From a virus: a DNA stretch of 19,196 nt. The stretch lies in UHGV virus genome UHGV-1692018. One strand, written 5' to 3'. Both the position numbers and the translations under genes were made by a program. This document shows positions 1 to 15,334 of the stretch, in pieces; position 1 is the stretch's first letter, and each line of letters begins with the position of its first letter. The notes under the pieces are model-generated. The model did no database searches, was not told the DNA's origin, and worked only from the letters and a program-made list of their open reading frames with translations.

Positions 1-88
1 GGACTTCGGGGGAAAAACGAGTATTTTTAGTCATCCTGTTTACCTCTTTCTCAGGAAGTTTAGTCTCCAGGATTCCCGGGGCGGTTCA
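1..88 (-). mobile_element. Terminal 88 bp of an IS3-family insertion sequence (IS629/IS1203-like), left inverted repeat plus start of orfA; the rest of the element lies outside the window
   Basis: Bases 1-88 are the exact reverse complement of 19109-19196. Read on the minus strand the segment starts TGAACCGCCCCGGGAATCCTGGAGACTAAAC and contains ATGACTAAAAATACTCGTTTTTCCCCCGAAGTCC, translating to MTKNTRFSPEV, which I recognise as the orfA N-terminus of IS629-type elements. Identity ends abruptly at 88/89. Confidence 0.85.
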
Positions 89-248
89 CATCGCCCTTTG
101 CCTCAAGTTTCATCAATAACTCCATTCGATAAGCTATCTCTGCCTGAATTGACCTATGGCATCTTTTTGCTGATTCGCGGATATGTGAATCAACCTTTTC
201 TGTAAAACGAACCTGACGCGGCTTGATGGAAGATATCTTTTCAGTCAT
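60..248 (-). CDS. Arc/Mnt-family ribbon-helix-helix repressor, C-terminus altered by IS insertion (last ~9 residues IS-encoded)
   Basis: 62-aa ORF with AGGAG 7 nt upstream of the ATG. The stretch RQVRFTEKVDSHIRESAKRCHRSIQAEIAYRMELLMK aligns by eye with P22 Arc FNLRWPREVLDLVRKVAEENGRSVNSEIYQRVMESFKK. Codon 54 spans the phage/IS junction at 88/89, so residues 54-62 (VNRPGNPGD) and the stop are IS-encoded. Confidence 0.7.
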   Translation of the reverse strand: MTEKISSIKPRQVRFTEKVDSHIRESAKRCHRSIQAEIAYRMELLMKLEAKGDVNRPGNPGD

Positions 249-297
249 TATGCACTCCTGTTTTTAAAAAACTCATAATCTCACTTTTTGTAGTTTG

Positions 298-326
298 ATT
301 ATTCACTCACACTCAGCATGAGTCAA
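298..326 (-). promoter_or_regulatory. Candidate sigma70 promoter for the Arc-like gene (-35 TTGACT, 17-bp spacer, -10 AATAAT) overlapping ACTCA-type repeats
   Basis: Minus strand reads TTGACT (321-326), a 17-nt spacer, then AATAAT (298-303). The spacer and -35 overlap the imperfect palindrome ACTCAgcaTGAGT (311-323) and the tandem CACTCACACTCA. Confidence 0.4.
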
Positions 327-347
327 TGAATTTTTTATGGTGAACTA

Positions 348-989
348 ATGAATTTTGACGATCAATTCCCATCAAGAGTATCTCTGGCAAGACAGTCCAG
401 GGGTATGACGCAGGCGCAGTTGTCAAAATTAGCTGGTGTTGTTCAACGTCAAATAGCTGCATACGAGGGTGGTGAGGCTAAACCACGGCTTCGGGTATTG
501 CAGGCATTAGCCAACGCATTAGGTACTACAGCTGAGTGGTTAGCTCTAGGTGAAGGTCAGGGTCCGGGAACAAAAAACGTCATGCCTGACGTTCTGGTAA
601 AGCAAATACCAATCCTCAAACTAGATGAAGTTATGCATTACCTAAACACAGGTGAACATTCATCGTCTAGATTTCATCCGGCAATATACAATGTTGGTGA
701 CTCTGCATTTGCATTGACTATTGAAGGTGAAGCTATGACTACAAGTTCAGGTATTAGCTTTCCCAGAGGATCGGTTGTCACGTTCAGCCCTCTAGTAAAA
801 GCTAAAAGCAAAGATTATGTAATAGCATCATTGGATAAAGAGCAAATATTGAGCTTCAAACAGGTTTACATTGGTGAAATAGAGACAAACCTAGTATCCC
901 TAAACCCAATGTATCCTAATATTCTTGTTAGAAATGAAGATGTTAGTATTTTGGCAACCGCAGTTTACCTTGAAATCCCGTTGCTTTGA
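348..989 (+). CDS. Lambda-CI-like repressor: N-terminal XRE-type HTH plus C-terminal S24 (LexA/CI) peptidase-like domain with apparent Ser-to-Ala at the catalytic position
   Basis: 213 aa. N-terminus SRVSLARQSRGMTQAQLSKLAGVVQRQIAAYEGG resembles the 434/lambda repressor HTH. C-terminus DSAFALTIEGEAMTTSSGISFPRG ... SFKQVYIGE ... LNPMYPNI aligns with lambda CI [26 protein letters not shown] ... FKKLIRDSG ... LNPQYP; the GNSM motif appears as GEAM. Confidence 0.8.
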   Translation: MNFDDQFPSRVSLARQSRGMTQAQLSKLAGVVQRQIAAYEGGEAKPRLRVLQALANALGTTAEWLALGEGQGPGTKNVMPDVLVKQIPILKLDEVMHYLNTGEHSSSRFHPAIYNVGDSAFALTIEGEAMTTSSGISFPRGSVVTFSPLVKAKSKDYVIASLDKEQILSFKQVYIGEIETNLVSLNPMYPNILVRNEDVSILATAVYLEIPLL

Positions 990-1049
990 TATCCTTTAGG
1001 AAGCGACACATTATCATCTGGTATCCTGCTCAAAACTAAGGAGGTTGGT

Positions 1050-1238
1050 GTGAAGAAAAAATTTGTAAACGTTGCAAAGTGCGCAATTTTTATATTTTTT
1101 ATGACCTTTTACGGATTTAGTGCCGGAGAAGGTTTCGATCGTGATGCCAATGCATTCAGTTTCTTTTGTCTGTCTATAGTGGTCATAATTGTATGGGTGG
1201 AATTAAAGCAAACATTGTTTCATGTGCTAAGGAAATAA
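1050..1238 (+). CDS. Small hydrophobic protein (62 aa, two predicted hydrophobic segments), function unknown; candidate superinfection-exclusion or membrane-acting protein
   Basis: GTG start preceded by AAGGAGG at about 6 nt. Sequence MKKKFVNVAKCAIFIFFMTFYGFSA...FSFFCLSIVVIIVWV has two hydrophobic stretches. Sits in an AT-rich stretch directly downstream of the CI-like gene on the same strand. Confidence 0.5.
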   Translation: MKKKFVNVAKCAIFIFFMTFYGFSAGEGFDRDANAFSFFCLSIVVIIVWVELKQTLFHVLRK

Positions 1239-1255
1239 CCATCCATGGCATTTAG

Positions 1256-3085
1256 TCACTGCTGTGTTGCCTCAGTGGCAAGCAGCGGTCTGATGGCATT
1301 TGCAGCGTTACTTAATGCTCTTTCATAGGCTGGCGTTCCTGCTTTGGTGTTTGCCAAACGTAAGAGAGCATTCCTTGCTGCTTTTGACTCATACAAGCGC
1401 ATCATTGCACCGAAACCAGCCTCAAGCCCCATTGATACGCCAAGAGTCGCAGTTGCGCCAATCGTCCTTATCCTGTTGGCTTGCGATTGTCCTGTCTGTG
1501 TTACTACATTTGCGGCGTCCGACCTTGCTGTTTGCTGTAGAACTTCATGAAGAGCATCAAGCTCTTTCATGTGTCTCCCACTGAATATCGTGTTATAGAT
1601 CTGACCGTCAGATTGCGACTTCAACTTATTTAACTCGGTAAGAAATTTTGTTGGCGAGTCTCCTGCTTTTTCTGCAATCTTGCTGATATAAGCAGCACGC
1701 ATAGCGTTCTTTCCATCTTCACTAAGAGCTGGCCATATCCTCTTAATATCTGATGGTTTTCTGCTGAATACAACACTGTTTATTAGCTCTGGAGTAAACT
1801 CTTTTTTAGCTTTGTTGAGATTATTCGCAATCCTTTTATTAAGAACCTTATTGAAGACGTTAGAGTAGTCAGAGTTTGCCTTGACGTATCTGGCGGCCTC
1901 TCCAGCCCCCAAATACCGCGCTGCGTTATTCCTCAAATCTGCCCCCATTGCCCTCTCCACGGTATCAGTTGCGGCTTTCGCGCTATTAGGAAAAACCATG
2001 GCATCTCCCTGAATACTTTCCCTCAAGGCTGACCGCAACTCTCTCAATAGACCAAAATCTATATCTGGTTTAGCAAGTTCTTCTCGCAAATCGGATAACC
2101 CGCGAATCAAATCCTTATTTGCCACTTTCCCAAGCCTATTAGCTCTGGTAAGTACGTTGTCGATAACCTTAATAGATTTTGATGTGTCAACTGGTGTGTC
2201 TCCCATTTTGGCTGTAATGTCTTCAATAACGCTTCCGGCCGAATCCTTCCTTGACTTCAGAGAACCATACAGATCGTCAACAACAACTGATGGGCTATAT
2301 TCACCATATTTCTCAAGCTGTTTTTTAACTAGCTGACTTCTTTTTGCATACTGCTCAGCTCGCTTTGAGCCTGTCCCGAGCAAAGCCCCCTCGGCATCCT
2401 GAGTTAGGCCGCGAGTGAAAGCATTTTTCGGCGGGATAACATCAGATGTCATTGGTGTCACGCCCATCGATTCTGAGGTGGCAATTTTTTTCGCTACTTC
2501 TGGCGCGATATCGCCTTTTATAGCCGTTATTCCACGCCCTATTCCCTTTGCTGCTGCGGAAAGAACACCCTGAGCAGCAAGGTTAACTCCGGCGTTTATG
2601 GCTGCATTTTGCGCGAAATCGCCTTTCTGGTTTGCGGCTTCTGCCAGTGATCCAATAGCCATGCTTCCTGCAGTTCCAACTCCTGGAACTAAATACCCGC
2701 CAATTGTTTCTCCAGCTTGCGCATAAGGGTCTGTTGGTCGATCTACTGGACGATAGACATCGTCCAAAACCTTGTGACCACCAAGCCCCTGGCTGATTGC
2801 ATTAATCAGACTTGCGCCACCCTGCAATACGTCAAATGGTATGTTTACCAGACCACGACCAGCCTGTTCTGCAATTTGCCCTGCACTTTGACCACCAGTG
2901 AGCCAATCGCCAGCTTGTTGCATCAATGATGGTTCTTCCTGTGTTGGTGCATTATTGGCCTGATTAACTGTTTGTTGCTGAACAGCCTGACCAGCAAAAT
3001 ACTCATCAATGGCGGTGCCAATATCTTCGGTGCTCGTACCATCAGGAAAGGTAAATGTCTTACCGTTTGCAGTTACTTTCATCAT
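1256..3085 (-). CDS. Ejection (internal virion) protein, P22 gp16-like
   Basis: 609 aa, Ala/Gly/Gln-rich, last gene of the virion operon in the position of P22 gene 16, whose size I recall as 609 aa. Start overlaps the upstream gene's stop. Confidence 0.8.
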
Positions 3086-4461
3086 TCCACCGTAAATTGA
3101 ATGCCTGATTTTGACGTGTAGCTACCTCCTGCTGATTGCTGAGTAGCTGGCTGTTGCCTTGATGATTTCTTCCCGCCATTACCGACATTAACGTTATATT
3201 GCTGGTTGTAATTGTCGGTATATTGCTGAATGTCGCGCATTGATTGTTGTAGTGCTTCAGGGCTTGAGAAATCAACCTGTGGCATACCTTGAAAATACAT
3301 CTTTGCTTCTGCAACGGTGTTGATACCAGATGCCCCCATGTCTCTGGCTGCTGCAATGCCCTGATTCTGCATCTTTCCTTGGATTCGCTGTGCAGCGTTG
3401 TATAGTTTCCTCTGATCACCACCAGAGGCACGGCTACGAATATCTGCACCAAGAGCAGGAGAACCTGAAGAGCCTGTAATGCCAGTCATGAAGCCAAGAT
3501 CGTCAATTGATGCGCCAGAAATTGCATCAAGATCTTTCTTCATTGCGTAATTCTGCGCGCTTGCTGCCGACGTGGCCGGAGCAGCAATAGAGCCAGCAGG
3601 AACGCGAACCATGTTCCCCTCATTGTCTATTCCTTCGTAGAACGCGTTAGCACCTGCACCATGAAGCTTCCCGCCTACGGTTACAGTTCTTCCGTCTGCT
3701 AGTTGAACTGTGCGCTCATTATTACCAACAGCCCCTTTCATTGATGCTCTCTGCATCGCTAAATCCTGACCTCTCCGTGCAGTAGCAGCAGATAAATCCT
3801 GACCGCGCATCGTGATATCCTGACCACGAGCAGTTAACTGATTTCTTTCTCCTTCAAGTCGACGCCCCTCCATTCGATCTTTGATATCGAAGTACTTCTC
3901 ATGACCGAGAGAAAATAGTGCCAGATTACCTGTGAAGTGCTGGAAGCCCTGCGGGTCATTAACCTGCATTTCCGCAATAGTTTCTGGAGGGATACCTAAA
4001 CGACGCATCTCCTTTTCGTTATCCATCATGAACCTGCCAAATGCACCCGGACCAAGCGACGAAGCGACCTGAGCCTTAAGCGCCAGATTGCCAAAATCAT
4101 TCCGCTGGGCGTCATCGACATACCCCATGCCTTTACGAACTTCCTCAAACTCTTCGGGGAATGCTGTAATAAGATTACGCATCTGCTCCCTGTCGCCGGA
4201 CGCATAAGCATCCGCATAACCTTTCTGGAATGCCGCTTTACGTTCCTGCTGTTGCTGCTGCTTATAAATATCAGCAACTCCAGCCAGACCACGTAACGCG
4301 GTCAGACCAACGTTATTTGCACCTGATCGAGCCAGTTCATTGTTTTCGCGAATCAGACCAAGCGTTGCATTAATGTCGCTTGCCTTTGGCGCATTCTCGT
4401 TTTGCGCACCAATTCCAGCCAGAAAACCACCAGAATTAATACCCTGTTGCCACGTAGCCAT
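3082..4461 (-). CDS. Ejection protein, P22 gp20-like
   Basis: 459 aa in the gp20 position (P22 gp20 about 471 aa from memory); low-complexity Gly/Ala/Gln-rich composition typical of podovirus ejection proteins. Confidence 0.75.
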
Positions 4462-14739: not shown

Positions 14740-14982
14740 TTATGCTCCGGTAGTGAACAGGTCTAACGCTTCCTTCGATTTACGCACCGCTTCGATAGTG
14801 CGGGTCGTGATATCTGAATTAGCGCCGCCTGACTGGAAGTGAATTTTGAATAGCTCAAGCTTCAGCTCGTCAGTGCCAATGAACTGAAATGCTTCCTCTG
14901 CGGCTGCGTTCTGGTTCATGACCAGCTTGTAAATCTCTAACTGGAATTTCTGTTCTTCAGTCATGGGAATAATCTCTGCCAT
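14740..14982 (-). CDS. Hypothetical 80-aa protein translationally coupled to the terminase genes (P22 orf80-like position)
   Basis: GGAG 6 nt upstream of the ATG at 14982; stop abuts the small terminase start; no recognisable motifs. Confidence 0.55.
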   Translation of the reverse strand: MAEIIPMTEEQKFQLEIYKLVMNQNAAAEEAFQFIGTDELKLELFKIHFQSGGANSDITTRTIEAVRKSKEALDLFTTGA

Positions 14983-15029: not shown

Positions 15030-15334
15030 GTGTAGGGTATAAGCCATTGTCGAGACCACTCATTGAATGGTCTCTGCAATAACCGATGTCTTTCCATCAG
15101 TCCGCCACCACAAAGAATCTTTTTTGCCATAAGGCAGGAGGTTCATCTTTCAGTGGCTGCCAGTGTTATTTCCCCACTTACTGGCTTGGGTTGCTTCGTG
15201 GTACTGCCGCAACTGGTGGTGCACAGATTTAGTTAAATCTGTTCTCGCCTGAACTATCTTTTACATACCCGGATTGTGGGGATGTAAATCACGGTTTCAT
15301 TATCAAGCCCACCCGTAGATAGGCTTTGTAATGG

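What the first reader, a model, noticed from the sequence alone, without database searches (positions are those of the whole stretch)
249..347. Divergent switch region between the Arc-like and CI-like genes with overlapping promoter and clustered ACTCA/TGAGT repeats
The 99-bp intergenic region contains a well-formed leftward promoter (TTGACT, 17 bp, AATAAT) for the Arc-like gene. Its -35 and spacer overlap an imperfect palindrome ACTCAgcaTGAGT (311-323), the tandem CACTCACACTCA (304-315) and further CTCA copies at 272-284. This looks like operator sites overlapping a promoter, as in the Pant/Pmnt back-to-back arrangement of P22 immI, but the partner repressor here is CI-type rather than Mnt. 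No convincing rightward promoter for the CI-like gene was found, so it could be weakly or positively regulated.
Basis: seen in the sequence. Interest (0 to 1): 0.5.

Follow-up and report, generated by a model that had tools for sequence, protein, structure and literature searches.

The report
P22-like prophage antirepressor control switch
This 99-bp spacer is the control region of an antirepressor cassette in a P22-like E. coli prophage, a variant of the classic P22 immI region in which a non-cleavable CI-like protein takes the place of Mnt; in this copy an IS629 insertion has cut the operon off.

Summary
TTGACT-17-AATAAT (326..298, minus strand), ACTCAgcaTGAGT (311-323), CACTCACACTCA (304-315) and CTCA at 272-283 are all present.

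The window is the late region of a P22-like prophage. The spacer lies in the immI / "ant moron" position next to gene 16. Intact relatives (phage JEP4, E. coli HS, O111 strains) have: CI-like(+) | 99 bp | 57-aa Arc-like gene(-) | sar-like antisense RNA | two antirepressor genes(-). In the window, IS629 (1-88) replaces the last 4 codons of the Arc-like gene and separates it from everything downstream.

- **Leftward promoter:** it is the best promoter match at the same place in 26/26 diverged lineages.
- **Palindrome:** it lies on a dyad centred at 317 that recurs across lineages. Base 321 co-varies with the first recognition-helix residue of the CI-like protein and not with the Arc-like type. 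It is therefore most likely the CI-like operator over the -35.
- **Other repeats:** the tandem CACTCA is lineage-specific. The leader CTCA boxes are conserved but unassigned.
- **Rightward promoter:** a candidate (TTGATG 223-228, CATTAT 246-251) is supported by frozen synonymous codons. It would make the two promoters face-to-face rather than back-to-back.

Verdict: a new variant of a known kind.

The parts
1..88 (-). Terminal segment of IS629 (IS3 family). The IS end is TGAACCGCCCC... reading leftward from 88, and the transposase orfA ATG is at 34..32. It is inserted in the 3' end of the Arc-like gene.
   Evidence: Positions 1-90 are 96-99% identical to IS629 copies in Stx phages. All ~23 near-identical relatives have native sequence left of 88 instead.
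60..248 (-). Chimeric ORF for the small Arc-like (RHH) protein. Native codons 1-53 occupy 89-248, followed by 9 IS-encoded codons. The native protein is 57 aa and ends ...KGDVVIQ.
   Evidence: RHH evidence is weak but consistent. The protein belongs to phrog_10182, function unknown.
223..251 (+). Candidate rightward promoter P_R for the CI-like gene: TTGATG (223-228), 17 bp, CATTAT (246-251, which includes the CAT of the Arc-like start codon). Predicted start is about 257-260.
   Evidence: It is the top plus-strand PWM hit at the homologous place in 20/26 lineages. The scan tool finds TTGATA-17-CATTAT (9/12) there in L005 and L012. Codons 8-9 are frozen as ATC AAG in 19/19 lineages, and Lys9 is AAG in 28/28 against 90/191 elsewhere.
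255..259 (-). Shine-Dalgarno AGGAG of the Arc-like gene, 6 nt before its ATG.
   Evidence: Read from the sequence; conserved in the alignment.
269..284 (.). Conserved leader element AAACTCATAATCTCAC, with two (A/T)CTCA boxes 8 bp apart (271-275, 279-283). It lies at about +8 to +22 of the leftward transcript. The binding partner is unassigned.
   Evidence: Conserved as AAAC[T/G]CAYAWWCTCAY. There is no RNA structure signal in the window (z = -0.2).
298..326 (-). Leftward promoter P_L, the Pant analogue: -35 TTGACT (326..321), 17 bp, -10 AATAAT (303..298). Predicted start is about 291.
   Evidence: 10/12 match. It is the top minus-strand hit at the same position in 26/26 diverged lineages. GTCAA is the most conserved block of the spacer.
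304..309 (.). Extra CACTCA copy, the outer unit of the tandem repeat. It is specific to this lineage.
   Evidence: Not conserved in L003, L005, L006 or L007.
308..326 (.). Dyad operator O1 with core ACTCA-GCA-TGAGT at 311-323 and centre at 317. It overlaps the -35 and upstream spacer of P_L and is proposed as the CI-like binding site.
   Evidence: 9/27 lineages have at least 4/5 inner matches about centre 317, against 0-3 at 25 control centres. Near-identical copies vary only at 315-317 while the arms stay intact. Base 321 co-varies with the recognition-helix residue.
327..337 (-). A-tract upstream of the -35 of P_L (TAAAAAATTCA on the minus strand; A6 at about -45 to -40). It resembles a proximal UP element.
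   Evidence: The T-run is conserved across lineages. The UP-element function is an inference.
339..343 (+). Shine-Dalgarno GGTGA of the CI-like gene.
   Evidence: Conserved as GGTGA/AGGT in the lineages compared.
348..989 (+). CI-like repressor gene, 213 aa, HTH_3 + Peptidase_S24. The recognition helix is V32-Q33-R34-Q35-I-A-A-Y. The S24 nucleophile is Ala129 (GEAM), Lys171 is kept, and there is no Ala-Gly cleavage site.
   Evidence: Pfam HTH_3 9e-13 and S24 1.3e-12; alignment A1; phrog_4 transcriptional repressor.

Best explanation
The spacer is the promoter/operator region of an immI-type antirepressor cassette (the 'ant moron', HS-1 type) of a P22-like prophage.

A strong sigma-70 promoter P_L (TTGACT-17-AATAAT with an upstream A-tract, start near 291) fires leftward. 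In intact copies its operon is: a 57-aa Arc-like RHH protein, then a sar-like antisense-RNA locus, then two antirepressor-type proteins (Bro-N/P22_AR_C and KilA-like).

The divergently oriented CI-like protein plays the part of Mnt. A dimer binds the dyad O1 (308-326, core ACTCA-N3-TGAGT), which covers the -35 and upstream spacer of P_L, and keeps the antirepressors off in the lysogen. The first recognition-helix residue (Q33 here) pairs with base pair 321 and its dyad mate 313.

The CI-like gene is most likely transcribed from a weak promoter P_R (223-251) that overlaps the start codon of the Arc-like gene. P_R and P_L would then face each other, with their transcripts overlapping by about 30-35 nt. 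Repression of P_L would indirectly help P_R, while O1 sits in the P_R leader.

The CI-like protein has no cleavage site and no Ser nucleophile, and the spacer has no LexA box. The switch is therefore not wired directly to RecA or LexA.

By analogy with Arc, the RHH protein gives feedback repression. Its site is not resolved.

In this window IS629 has replaced the RHH C-terminus and uncoupled P_L from the genes downstream. P_L now reads into the IS.

**Shown:** anatomy, conservation, covariation and genomic context. **Inferred:** binding, promoter activity and regulatory logic.
For: **Context**
- The late genes are on the minus strand and the gp16 homologue is at 1256..3085.
- JEP4, UTAK-8 and E. 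coli HS show CI-like(+) / 57-aa(-) / P22AR-C antirepressor(-) / KilA-like(-) / Arc-family(+) / tailspike(-).
- Pfam and PHROG assign the downstream genes to antirepressors.
- The same cassette, with a 97-103 bp spacer, sits in the late regions of podo-, sipho- and myovirus-type prophages.

**P_L**
- 10/12 match.
- Top hit at the same position in 26/26 lineages.
- Most conserved columns of the spacer.

**O1**
- Dyad enrichment at centre 317.
- Polymorphism confined to 315-317 among copies that are ~99% identical.
- A recognition-helix residue of R goes with TGTGTCAA in 12/13 lineages. Any other residue goes with TGAGTCAA in 26/33. The same RHH subtypes occur on both sides, and R lineages fall in at least 3 separate groups.
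- L067 has a perfect TTGACAC-N5-GTGTCAA with a compensatory change at 313/321.
- TGAGTCAA is unique in the 39-kb JEP4 genome.

**P_R:**

**Non-cleavable repressor and no LexA box:**

**sar-like element:**

**IS629:**
Against: - No binding or transcript data exist. Every functional step is inferred.
- The left arm of O1 is recognisable in only about a third of lineages.
- The covarying base is the 6th position of the -35 hexamer. The HTH domain and the spacer are physically linked, so co-inheritance explains part of the correlation.
- A Klebsiella group with Q at the helix position has ATGTCAA and a different palindrome.
- The 4-5-4 geometry of ACTC-N5-GAGT matches the Arc/CopG type of RHH operator (PMC2724298), which favours the rival.
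- P_R is only 8/12 in the window and partly constrained by coding. Five lineages use another position.
- RHH membership rests on sub-threshold hits, and the AlphaFold monomer model is one long helix.
Confidence: 0.62

Rival explanations
1. The 13-bp palindrome ACTC-AGCAT-GAGT is the operator of the small Arc-like RHH protein, bound as a dimer of dimers like O_arc inside Pant. The CI-like protein would bind elsewhere, for example at the conserved leader boxes 269-284 near the start site, which is where O_mnt lies in P22.
For: Arc and CopG operators consist of two inverted 4-bp boxes 5 bp apart, forming a 13-bp symmetric element with a central G:C pair that lies over the promoter (PMC2724298). 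The window element has exactly this geometry, with C317 at the centre. In P22, O_arc lies between the -35 and -10 of Pant and O_mnt lies over the start site (annotated record). The leader boxes are conserved and unassigned.
Against: Base 321, which lies inside the right box, follows the CI-like recognition helix and not the RHH beta-strand type. Identical RHH subtypes occur with both GAG and GTG. In L067, L073 and L081 the symmetry extends to the outer TTGA/TCAA, giving a 19-bp site typical of an HTH dimer. The whole spacer travels with the CI-like gene when RHH types are exchanged.
Confidence: 0.2
2. The cassette is a self-contained bistable switch. The RHH protein acts as the Cro-like partner that mainly shuts off P_R (synthesis of the CI-like protein) rather than P_L. 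The repeats serve both proteins with different affinities, as the OR sites do in lambda.
For: The RHH gene is the first gene of the operon opposed to the repressor gene. P_R and P_L overlap face-to-face. The leader boxes lie just downstream of the predicted P_R start. In P22, Arc represses both Pant and Pmnt (PMC2724298).
Against: No site can be assigned to the RHH protein. The cassette carries no lytic genes of its own, only antirepressors. This reading overlaps the main explanation rather than excluding it.
Confidence: 0.1
3. The ACTCA/TGAGT cluster has no operator function. TGAGT is merely the sequence next to a conserved -35, the other copies are chance or low-complexity repeats, and the CI-like protein regulates another target.
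For: The 13-bp pattern alone is not significant, since 39 of 200 shuffles give at least one match. The tandem CACTCA is not conserved. The left arm is absent in many lineages.
Against: Only 5/5000 shuffles reach 4 copies. The TG at 319-320, outside the -35 hexamer, is almost invariant. Dyad enrichment is specific to centre 317. Base 321 co-varies with the HTH. TGAGTCAA occurs nowhere else in the JEP4 genome, so no other target is visible.
Confidence: 0.05

Closest known systems
Bacteriophage P22 immI region (mnt - Pmnt/Pant with O_arc and O_mnt - arc - sar - ant), located between genes 16 and 9
   Same: - Same genomic slot next to the gene-16 homologue.
- A strong promoter drives a small RHH-like first gene, followed by antirepressor gene(s).
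- A maintenance repressor gene lies on the opposite strand across a ~90-100 bp spacer (90 bp in P22, 99 bp here).
- An operator dyad lies over the promoter.
- In intact relatives, a candidate antisense RNA has its promoter 6 nt inside the ant gene and its terminator at the end of the arc-like gene, as for sar. It shares 67 identical columns of 130 with the P22 sar region.
- Sources.
   Different: - The repressor is HTH + S24 (CI/LexA type) rather than the RHH tetramer Mnt.
- The predicted repressor promoter lies upstream, across the arc-like start codon (face-to-face). P22 has almost fully overlapping divergent promoters (Pant 14793-14821, Pmnt 14798-14826).
- The small protein is only marginally similar to Arc (hhalign E = 1.3e-3).
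- There are two antirepressor genes with a Bro-N/P22_AR_C and a KilA-like architecture.
- An Mnt-like gene persists, but at the far end next to the tailspike gene.
'ant moron' of P22-like phages, HS-1 type (Villafane et al. 2008, PMC2629481)
   Same: The E. coli HS prophage carries this very module at 98.5% identity over window 88-1043. The paper describes the 16-9 interval as a fast-changing moron of ten types. It notes that HS-1 has putative antirepressor genes without a recognised arc gene, and so presumably a different control mechanism.
   Different: The paper gives a gene map only. It does not analyse the CI-like/57-aa pair, the promoters or the operator. The present analysis suggests that an Arc-like gene is in fact present.
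LexA-controlled antirepressor modules (Gifsy-1/Gifsy-3 GfoA/GfhA; also 186 Tum and N15 AntC, cited from general knowledge)
   Same: Antirepressor genes lie outside the primary immunity region and are held off by a repressor. Non-cleavable CI-type repressors are part of the circuitry (Lemire et al. 2011, PMC3121763).
   Different: The spacer has no LexA box, even allowing one mismatch. Control is by a phage-encoded, non-cleavable CI-like protein. The nearer precedent in that paper is Fels-1 FsoA, which is controlled by the phage repressor.
Face-to-face lysis/lysogeny promoters of coliphages 186 (pR/pL) and P2 (Pe/Pc), cited from general knowledge
   Same: Convergent promoters a few tens of bp apart give overlapping 5' transcripts, and the strong promoter can interfere with the weak repressor promoter.
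   Different: Here the arrangement controls an accessory antirepressor operon, not the primary switch. The arrangement is predicted, not mapped.

Membership tests
P22 immI-type antirepressor control region | Lies between the gene 16 and gene 9 (tailspike) homologues of a P22-like late operon | tested here: met
   The gp16 homologue is at 1256..3085, annotated as a P22-gp16 family / DNA transfer protein. The tailspike gene flanks the module in JEP4, UTAK-8 and E. coli HS. The tailspike side is not in the window because of IS629.
P22 immI-type antirepressor control region | Antirepressor gene downstream of the promoter-proximal small gene | tested here: met
   In intact relatives the next genes are Bro-N + P22_AR_C (Pfam 2e-13, 1.3e-10; PHROG anti-repressor Ant 4e-50) and a PHROG anti-repressor at 2e-102. 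In the window itself they are cut off by IS629.
P22 immI-type antirepressor control region | Maintenance repressor is Mnt (RHH, Arc family) | tested here: not met
   The divergent gene encodes HTH_3 + Peptidase_S24. An Arc-family Mnt-like gene exists in P22-like relatives but lies next to the tailspike gene.
P22 immI-type antirepressor control region | Divergent, overlapping Pant/Pmnt promoters | tested here: inconclusive
   In P22, Pant (14793-14821) and Pmnt (14798-14826) overlap. Here the best rightward candidate is at 223-251, which is face-to-face with P_L. No transcription start has been mapped.
P22 immI-type antirepressor control region | sar antisense RNA across the ant ribosome-binding site | tested here: inconclusive
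   JEP4 has plus-strand promoter-like sites 6 nt inside the ant gene. The ~100 nt that follow fold at -35.8 kcal/mol (z = -5.0) and end in a hairpin plus T-run. 67 of 130 columns are identical to the P22 sar region. There is no Rfam hit above threshold. The element lies beyond the IS, so it is not in the window.
Arc/MetJ ribbon-helix-helix superfamily (the small protein) | Sequence membership: Pfam Arc, ParD_like or RHH models at the gathering score | tested here: not met
   ParD_like scores 20.3 bits (cut-off 23) and Arc 15.7 bits (cut-off 20.4). Other subtypes also give only sub-threshold RHH_5, Arc and Antitox_RHH hits.
Arc/MetJ ribbon-helix-helix superfamily (the small protein) | Beta-strand / helix A / helix B pattern in register with solved RHH proteins | tested here: inconclusive
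   A family profile against PDB sequences puts AmrZ, CopG-family proteins, Arc, Mnt and an 'Arc family DNA-binding protein' at the top (E = 0.01-0.3), all in the same register. hhalign against Arc gives E = 1.3e-3, probability 18%. The AlphaFold monomer model is a single helix 10-50, which is not informative for an obligate dimer.
LexA / lambda CI-type self-cleaving HTH-S24 repressors | N-terminal HTH and C-terminal S24 domain | tested here: met
   HTH_3 9.3e-13; Peptidase_S24 1.3e-12.
LexA / lambda CI-type self-cleaving HTH-S24 repressors | Ser-Lys catalytic dyad | tested here: not met
   The motif is GEAM (Ala129) where relatives have GDSM/GNSM; Lys171 is kept (alignment A1). The same loss occurs in P0002, P0004 and P0005. 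The Ser is retained in P0003 and in more distant relatives.
LexA / lambda CI-type self-cleaving HTH-S24 repressors | Ala-Gly (or Cys-Gly) cleavage site about 35 residues before the Ser | tested here: not met
   The corresponding stretch is IPILKLDEVMHY. None of the 12 aligned relatives has AG or CG there.
Sigma-70 promoter (P_L) | -35 and -10 hexamers at 16-18 bp spacing, conserved in position | tested here: met
   10/12 match. Top minus-strand hit at the same position in 26/26 lineages.
Sigma-70 promoter (P_L) | Mapped transcription start | not testable with these tools
   No transcript data are available.
LexA-controlled antirepressor module | LexA box CTGT-N8-ACAG at the antirepressor promoter | tested here: not met
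   No match in 200-400 even with one mismatch.
IS629 (IS3 family) | Terminal sequence and start of orfA | tested here: met
   Window 1-90 is 96-99% identical to annotated IS629 copies. It reads TGAACCGCCCCGGGAATCC... followed by ATGACTAAAAATACTCG.

The most novel reading that the evidence does not exclude
The cassette is a portable, SOS-independent 'anti-immunity relay'. Its non-cleavable CI paralogue, with a catalytically dead S24 domain, would act as a receiver for another signal, such as a foreign antirepressor or a small molecule. De-repression of P_L would then release two antirepressors that induce or disarm co-resident prophages. The helix residue / base-pair 321 code would have diversified to insulate cassettes from one another in polylysogens.
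Probability: 0.15. Interest if true: 0.7.

Novelty: new variant of a known kind. Interest (0 to 1): 0.45.

Why it matters
Antirepressor modules decide when prophages are induced and how co-resident prophages talk to each other, including in pathogenic E. coli; copies of this cassette are in O111:H8 strains.

This variant is neither cleaved by RecA nor guarded by LexA, so its trigger is unknown and may be infection-specific or a form of cross-talk.

The cassette moves as a unit between podo-, sipho- and myovirus-type prophages of Enterobacterales.

The comparative data give a concrete, cheap experiment: Q33R against A321T/T313A. They also give a clear architectural contrast with the textbook immI region, namely face-to-face instead of overlapping divergent promoters.

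Two independent IS insertions in this operon (here and in E. coli HS) suggest that hosts or prophages benefit from silencing it.

Tried and rejected
- **LexA control:** no LexA box in the spacer.
- **Leaderless CI-like mRNA, or a rightward promoter between the -35 of P_L and the ATG:** no usable -10 there, and a conserved Shine-Dalgarno sequence argues against it.
- **RNA hairpin in the leader of the window:** z = -0.2. Other lineages have lineage-specific inverted repeats with modest z of -1 to -1.5, so this does not explain the CTCA boxes here.
- **A dyad partner to the right of the -35 half-site:** none.
- **A TTGAC in codons 3-4 of the CI-like gene as a third site:** its synonymous positions vary, so rejected (and the sequences).
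- **Other genomic targets of the operator:** TGAGTCAA is unique in JEP4, and one-mismatch ACTC-N5-GAGT hits are at the chance level.
- **DNA-level relatives among sequenced phages:** only JEP4.
- **Rfam:** nothing above threshold. The best hit is a weak SymR-like match (21 bits against a cut-off of 61) on the sar-like candidate.
- **AlphaFold monomer model of the small protein:** a single helix, uninformative.
- **Covariation of the spacer with RHH subtype:** none found. The whole spacer follows the CI-like gene.
- **Literature:** no experimental study of this cassette found in the searchable library.
Full report
**1. The observation**

The spacer between the minus-strand ORF (60..248; CAT at 246-248) and the plus-strand ORF (348..989) is 249-347, 99 bp.
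- AGTCAA 321-326 and ATTATT 298-303, which read TTGACT-17-AATAAT on the minus strand. This is 10/12 and the only minus-strand site found in 1-1300.
- ACTCAGCATGAGT at 311-323. Its arms are perfectly complementary.
- CACTCACACTCA at 304-315.
- ACTCA at 271-275 and CTCA at 280-283.

ACTCA/TGAGT occurs four times in 99 nt against 0.175 per 99 nt in the whole window, and 5 of 5000 dinucleotide shuffles reach four. The 13-bp pattern on its own is not significant.

The repeat finder also reports AATGAATTTT at 325-334 and 347-356, and an inverted repeat TAAAAAAYTCAT at 265-276 / 326-337.

**2. Where it is**

The window is the late region of a P22-like (Lederbergvirus) prophage lying on the minus strand. 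It has a 609-aa gp16 homologue at 1256..3085, followed by ejection, head, portal and terminase genes.

Window 88-1300 is 99.4% identical to phage JEP4 and 99.2-99.7% identical to prophages in 14 complete E. coli genomes. Window 1-90 matches IS629.

In JEP4, E. coli UTAK-8 and E. coli HS the uninterrupted arrangement is: gp16(-) | CI-like(+) | 99-bp spacer | 57-aa gene(-) | Bro-N/P22_AR_C antirepressor(-) | KilA-like antirepressor(-) | small ORF(-) | Arc-family Mnt-like gene(+) | tailspike(-).

This is the slot of the P22 immI region, which Villafane et al. called the "ant moron". They listed the E. coli HS version (HS-1) as a type with putative antirepressor genes but no recognised arc gene, and presumably a different control mechanism (PMC2629481).

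In the window, the end of IS629 (TGAACCGCCCC..., reading leftward from 88) replaces the last four codons of the small gene. The ORF becomes 53 native codons plus 9 IS-encoded codons. None of about 23 near-identical relatives has this insertion.

**3. A conserved, mobile cassette**

Homologues of the CI-like protein at 36-92% identity were traced to their contigs. Almost all sit next to a 56-57-aa gene on the opposite strand, across a spacer of 97-103 bp, followed by one to three antirepressor-type genes (P22_AR_N/C, Bro-N, pRha, ORF6N).

The surrounding phages differ:
- P22-like podoviruses, between gp16 and the tailspike gene.
- Lambda-like siphoviruses, among the tail genes.
- A myovirus, near the baseplate genes.
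- A site next to an integrase gene in Salmonella.

The unit is therefore a portable module.

**4. The leftward promoter**

A position-weight scan of 26 non-redundant lineages was run. In all 26, the best minus-strand promoter has TTGAC[T/A], 16-18 bp (19 in one alternative), then AATAAT/AATACT/CATATT/TATTAT and similar. The -35 lies 21-24 nt and the -10 about 50 nt before the CI-like ATG.

When the lineages are anchored on the -35, TG-GTCAA (319-326) and the following T-run are the most conserved columns of the spacer. On the transcribed strand the T-run is an A-tract at about -45 to -40, like a proximal UP element; this is an inference. A good Shine-Dalgarno sequence (AGGAG, 259..255) precedes the small gene.

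**5. The palindrome**

Three lines of evidence make 308-326 (core 311-323, centre 317) an operator rather than a chance palindrome.

- **Polymorphism.** Among copies about 99% identical, the sites that vary within and around the palindrome are 315-317 (AGC, AGT, GGA, ACT). The arms ACTC and TGAGT stay intact.
- **Dyad enrichment.** With the right arm fixed at 319-326, 9 of 27 non-redundant lineages have at least 4 of 5 complementary inner positions about centre 317. The 25 control centres give 0-3. In L067 the symmetry is TTGACAC-N5-GTGTCAA, 7 of 8 positions.
- **Covariation.** The residue at the start of the CI-like recognition helix is X in G[VI]V-X-RQIAAYE, and is Q33 here. It co-varies with base 321. 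X = R goes with TGTGTCAA in 12 of 13 lineages. X = Q/H/T/A/K/P/S goes with TGAGTCAA in 26 of 33. The same subtypes of the small protein (IKPMAYRM, IKPISYRP, GKQISYRP) occur with both variants. R lineages fall in at least three separate groups and spacer backgrounds. In L067 and L076 the dyad mate 313 changes in the compensating direction.

Base 321 is the least constrained position of the -35 hexamer (TTGACT against TTGACA), so it is free to serve operator specificity. TGAGTCAA occurs only here in the 39-kb JEP4 genome.

I conclude, with moderate confidence, that a CI-like dimer binds this dyad and occludes the -35 of P_L.

Caveats:
- The left arm is weak or absent in two thirds of lineages.
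- A Klebsiella group with Q has ATGTCAA and a different 17-bp palindrome in the spacer.
- The HTH domain and the spacer are inherited together.

**6. The rival assignment**

Arc and CopG operators are two inverted 4-bp boxes 5 bp apart, forming a 13-bp symmetric element with a central G:C pair that lies over the promoter (PMC2724298). ACTC-AGCAT-GAGT has exactly this geometry. In P22, O_arc lies inside Pant. So the small RHH-like protein could be the binder, or a second binder.

The covariation in section 5 argues against it being the only reader of base 321, but sequence alone cannot exclude overlapping sites for both proteins.

**7. The other repeats**

The tandem CACTCACACTCA is not conserved. 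Only the inner unit, which is the left arm of the dyad, recurs.

The leader element AAACTCATAATCTCAC (269-284) is conserved as AAAC[T/G]CAYAWWCTCAY. At least one (A/T)CTCA(T/C) box is present in nearly every lineage, whatever the type of either protein. It could be a second, weaker CI-like site or the site of the small protein. I could not decide between these.

The window leader shows no RNA-structure signal (z = -0.2). Some other lineages have inverted repeats with differing arms around this box, with z of -1 to -1.5.

**8. The rightward promoter**

No usable -10 lies between the -35 of P_L and the conserved Shine-Dalgarno GGTGA (339-343).

The best plus-strand candidate in 20 of 26 lineages is at a fixed place 125 to 97 nt before the CI-like ATG. 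In the window it is TTGATG (223-228), 17 bp, CATTAT (246-251), and the CAT is the start codon of the small gene. The consensus scan finds TTGATA-17-CATTAT (9/12) at that place in L005 and L012, as the only plus-strand site in 350 nt.

The TTG is encoded by codons 8-9 of the small gene, and these are frozen:
- ATC AAG in 19 of 19 Ile-Lys lineages.
- Lys9 is AAG in 28 of 28 lineages, against 90 of 191 Lys codons elsewhere in the same genes.
- Gly or Ser at position 8 always uses GGC or AGC.
- Neighbouring synonymous sites are saturated.

Lineages with a different N-terminus lack this TTG and instead have a strong plus-strand promoter inside the spacer.

So a rightward promoter probably exists, just outside the flagged interval. 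It faces P_L, with predicted starts near 257-260 and 291 and a transcript overlap of about 30-35 nt. This differs from P22, where Pant (14793-14821) and Pmnt (14798-14826) are divergent and almost superimposed. It resembles the face-to-face promoters of phages 186 and P2 (general knowledge).

**9. The proteins**

*CI-like protein.* It is HTH_3 + Peptidase_S24. It has Ala129 in place of the nucleophilic Ser (GEAM against GDSM in relatives), it keeps Lys171, and it has no Ala-Gly site. No relative has that site. It should not self-cleave. With no LexA box in the spacer, the module is not wired directly to the SOS response, unlike the Gifsy, 186 and N15 antirepressors (PMC3121763; general knowledge).

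*Small protein.* It belongs to phrog_10182, function unknown. Its Pfam hits to ParD_like and Arc are below threshold. A family profile puts AmrZ, CopG-family proteins, Arc and Mnt at the top of the PDB sequence search in a single register (E = 0.01-0.3), and hhalign against Arc gives E = 1.3e-3. The AlphaFold monomer model is one long helix and is uninformative. "Arc-like" is reasonable but not proven.

**10. A sar-like element in intact relatives**

In JEP4 the plus strand carries promoter-like sites that end 6 nt inside the antirepressor gene (TTGGAA-18-TACAAT with an upstream TG; TTAAAA-16-TATAAT).

The next ~100 nt fold at -35.8 kcal/mol (z = -5.0). They end in a GC hairpin followed by ACTATTTTTATT at the stop codon of the small gene. 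This is the layout of P22 sar: promoter 15097-15125 inside ant, terminator at the end of arc. The two regions share 67 identical columns of 130. Rfam gives nothing above threshold.

This strengthens the kinship with immI, but the element lies beyond the IS and is not in the window.

**11. Model, novelty and score**

- **Shown:** anatomy, context, conservation, covariation and frozen codons.
- **Inferred:** P_L is strong and is repressed by the CI-like protein at O1. P_R is weak, faces P_L and is relieved when P_L is off. The small protein feeds back as Arc does. The antirepressors act on primary repressors.

In this copy IS629 has uncoupled P_L from its cargo, so P_L now reads into the IS in the sense of its transposase gene.

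The system is a new variant of a known kind: an immI-type switch with a non-cleavable CI-like repressor, in a cassette shared by several phage types. It was noted at the gene-map level in 2008, but I found no experimental study of it in the searchable library.

Interest is moderate at 0.45. The biology is conventional, but the recognition-code prediction and the promoter architecture can be tested directly.

Noticed in passing
window 1-88: The end of IS629 is inserted in the last codons of the Arc-like gene, in the same orientation as P_L, so P_L can read into the transposase orfA (ATG at 34..32). It is absent from ~23 near-identical relatives.
   Followed up: yes
L105 (E. coli HS) 1898-3699: The HS copy of the same operon carries a different IS3-family element inside the KilA-like antirepressor gene. 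This is a second, independent IS hit in this operon.
   Followed up: partly
L001 (JEP4) 3865-3992, plus strand: Candidate sar-like antisense RNA. Its promoter ends 6 nt inside the antirepressor gene, it has two hairpins (z = -5.0), and its terminator lies at the stop codon of the small gene. About half of the aligned columns are identical to the P22 sar region. There is a weak SymR-like Rfam hit (21 bits).
   Followed up: partly
L001 1970-2227; L002 1948-2235; L012 1953-2198; L105 1428-1715: An Arc-family (Mnt-like) gene sits divergently from the tailspike gene and convergently with the antirepressor operon in the P22-like hosts of the cassette. It is absent from the siphovirus copies. Its target is unknown.
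   Followed up: partly
window 1050-1238 (+), with a promoter-like site at 986-1014: A 62-aa ORF with two hydrophobic segments (phrog_21338, function unknown) lies downstream of the CI-like gene. It sits where sieA and orf59a lie in P22, and TTGATA-17-CATTAT lies in front of it.
   Followed up: partly
window 732-734 (codon 129 of the CI-like gene): The S24 nucleophile Ser is Ala in the window protein and in P0002, P0004 and P0005. It is retained in P0003 and in all more distant relatives. None has an Ala-Gly site, so the loss of Ser looks like decay of an already unused catalytic centre.
   Followed up: partly
window 223-228 (codons 8-9 of the Arc-like gene): The synonymous positions of ATC AAG are invariant across lineages whose neighbouring synonymous sites are saturated. 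This is DNA-level selection inside a coding region.
   Followed up: yes
L007, L012, L018, L065, L017, L076, L014: leader regions: Inverted repeats with different arms (CGCA/TGCG, CACA/TGTG, CCGCA/TGCGG, CACACC/GGTGTG, TCTCTACA/TGTAGAGA) flank the conserved ACTCA box in other lineages. It is unclear whether they form an RNA hairpin or a second operator.
   Followed up: partly
L014, L050-L060 (Klebsiella-type copies): These copies start the CI-like gene with GTG. They have TTGACA-16-TAATAT and a perfect 17-bp palindrome ATATGAAT-T-ATTCATAT in the promoter spacer instead of the ACTCA dyad.
   Followed up: no
window 171-192 (+): A terminator-like hairpin followed by a T-rich tail lies on the plus strand inside the Arc-like gene, upstream of the candidate P_R. 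It may insulate the CI-like gene from antisense read-through, or it may be chance (0.8 expected per 1300 nt).
   Followed up: no
window 326-343 (+) and 276..241 (-): Two short upstream ORFs start at the ATGA(G/A)T motifs. One is ATG AAT TTT TTA TGG TGA (MNFLW*), ending in the Shine-Dalgarno sequence of the CI-like gene. The other is an 11-codon ORF that overlaps the start of the Arc-like gene. They are probably by-products of the motif.
   Followed up: no
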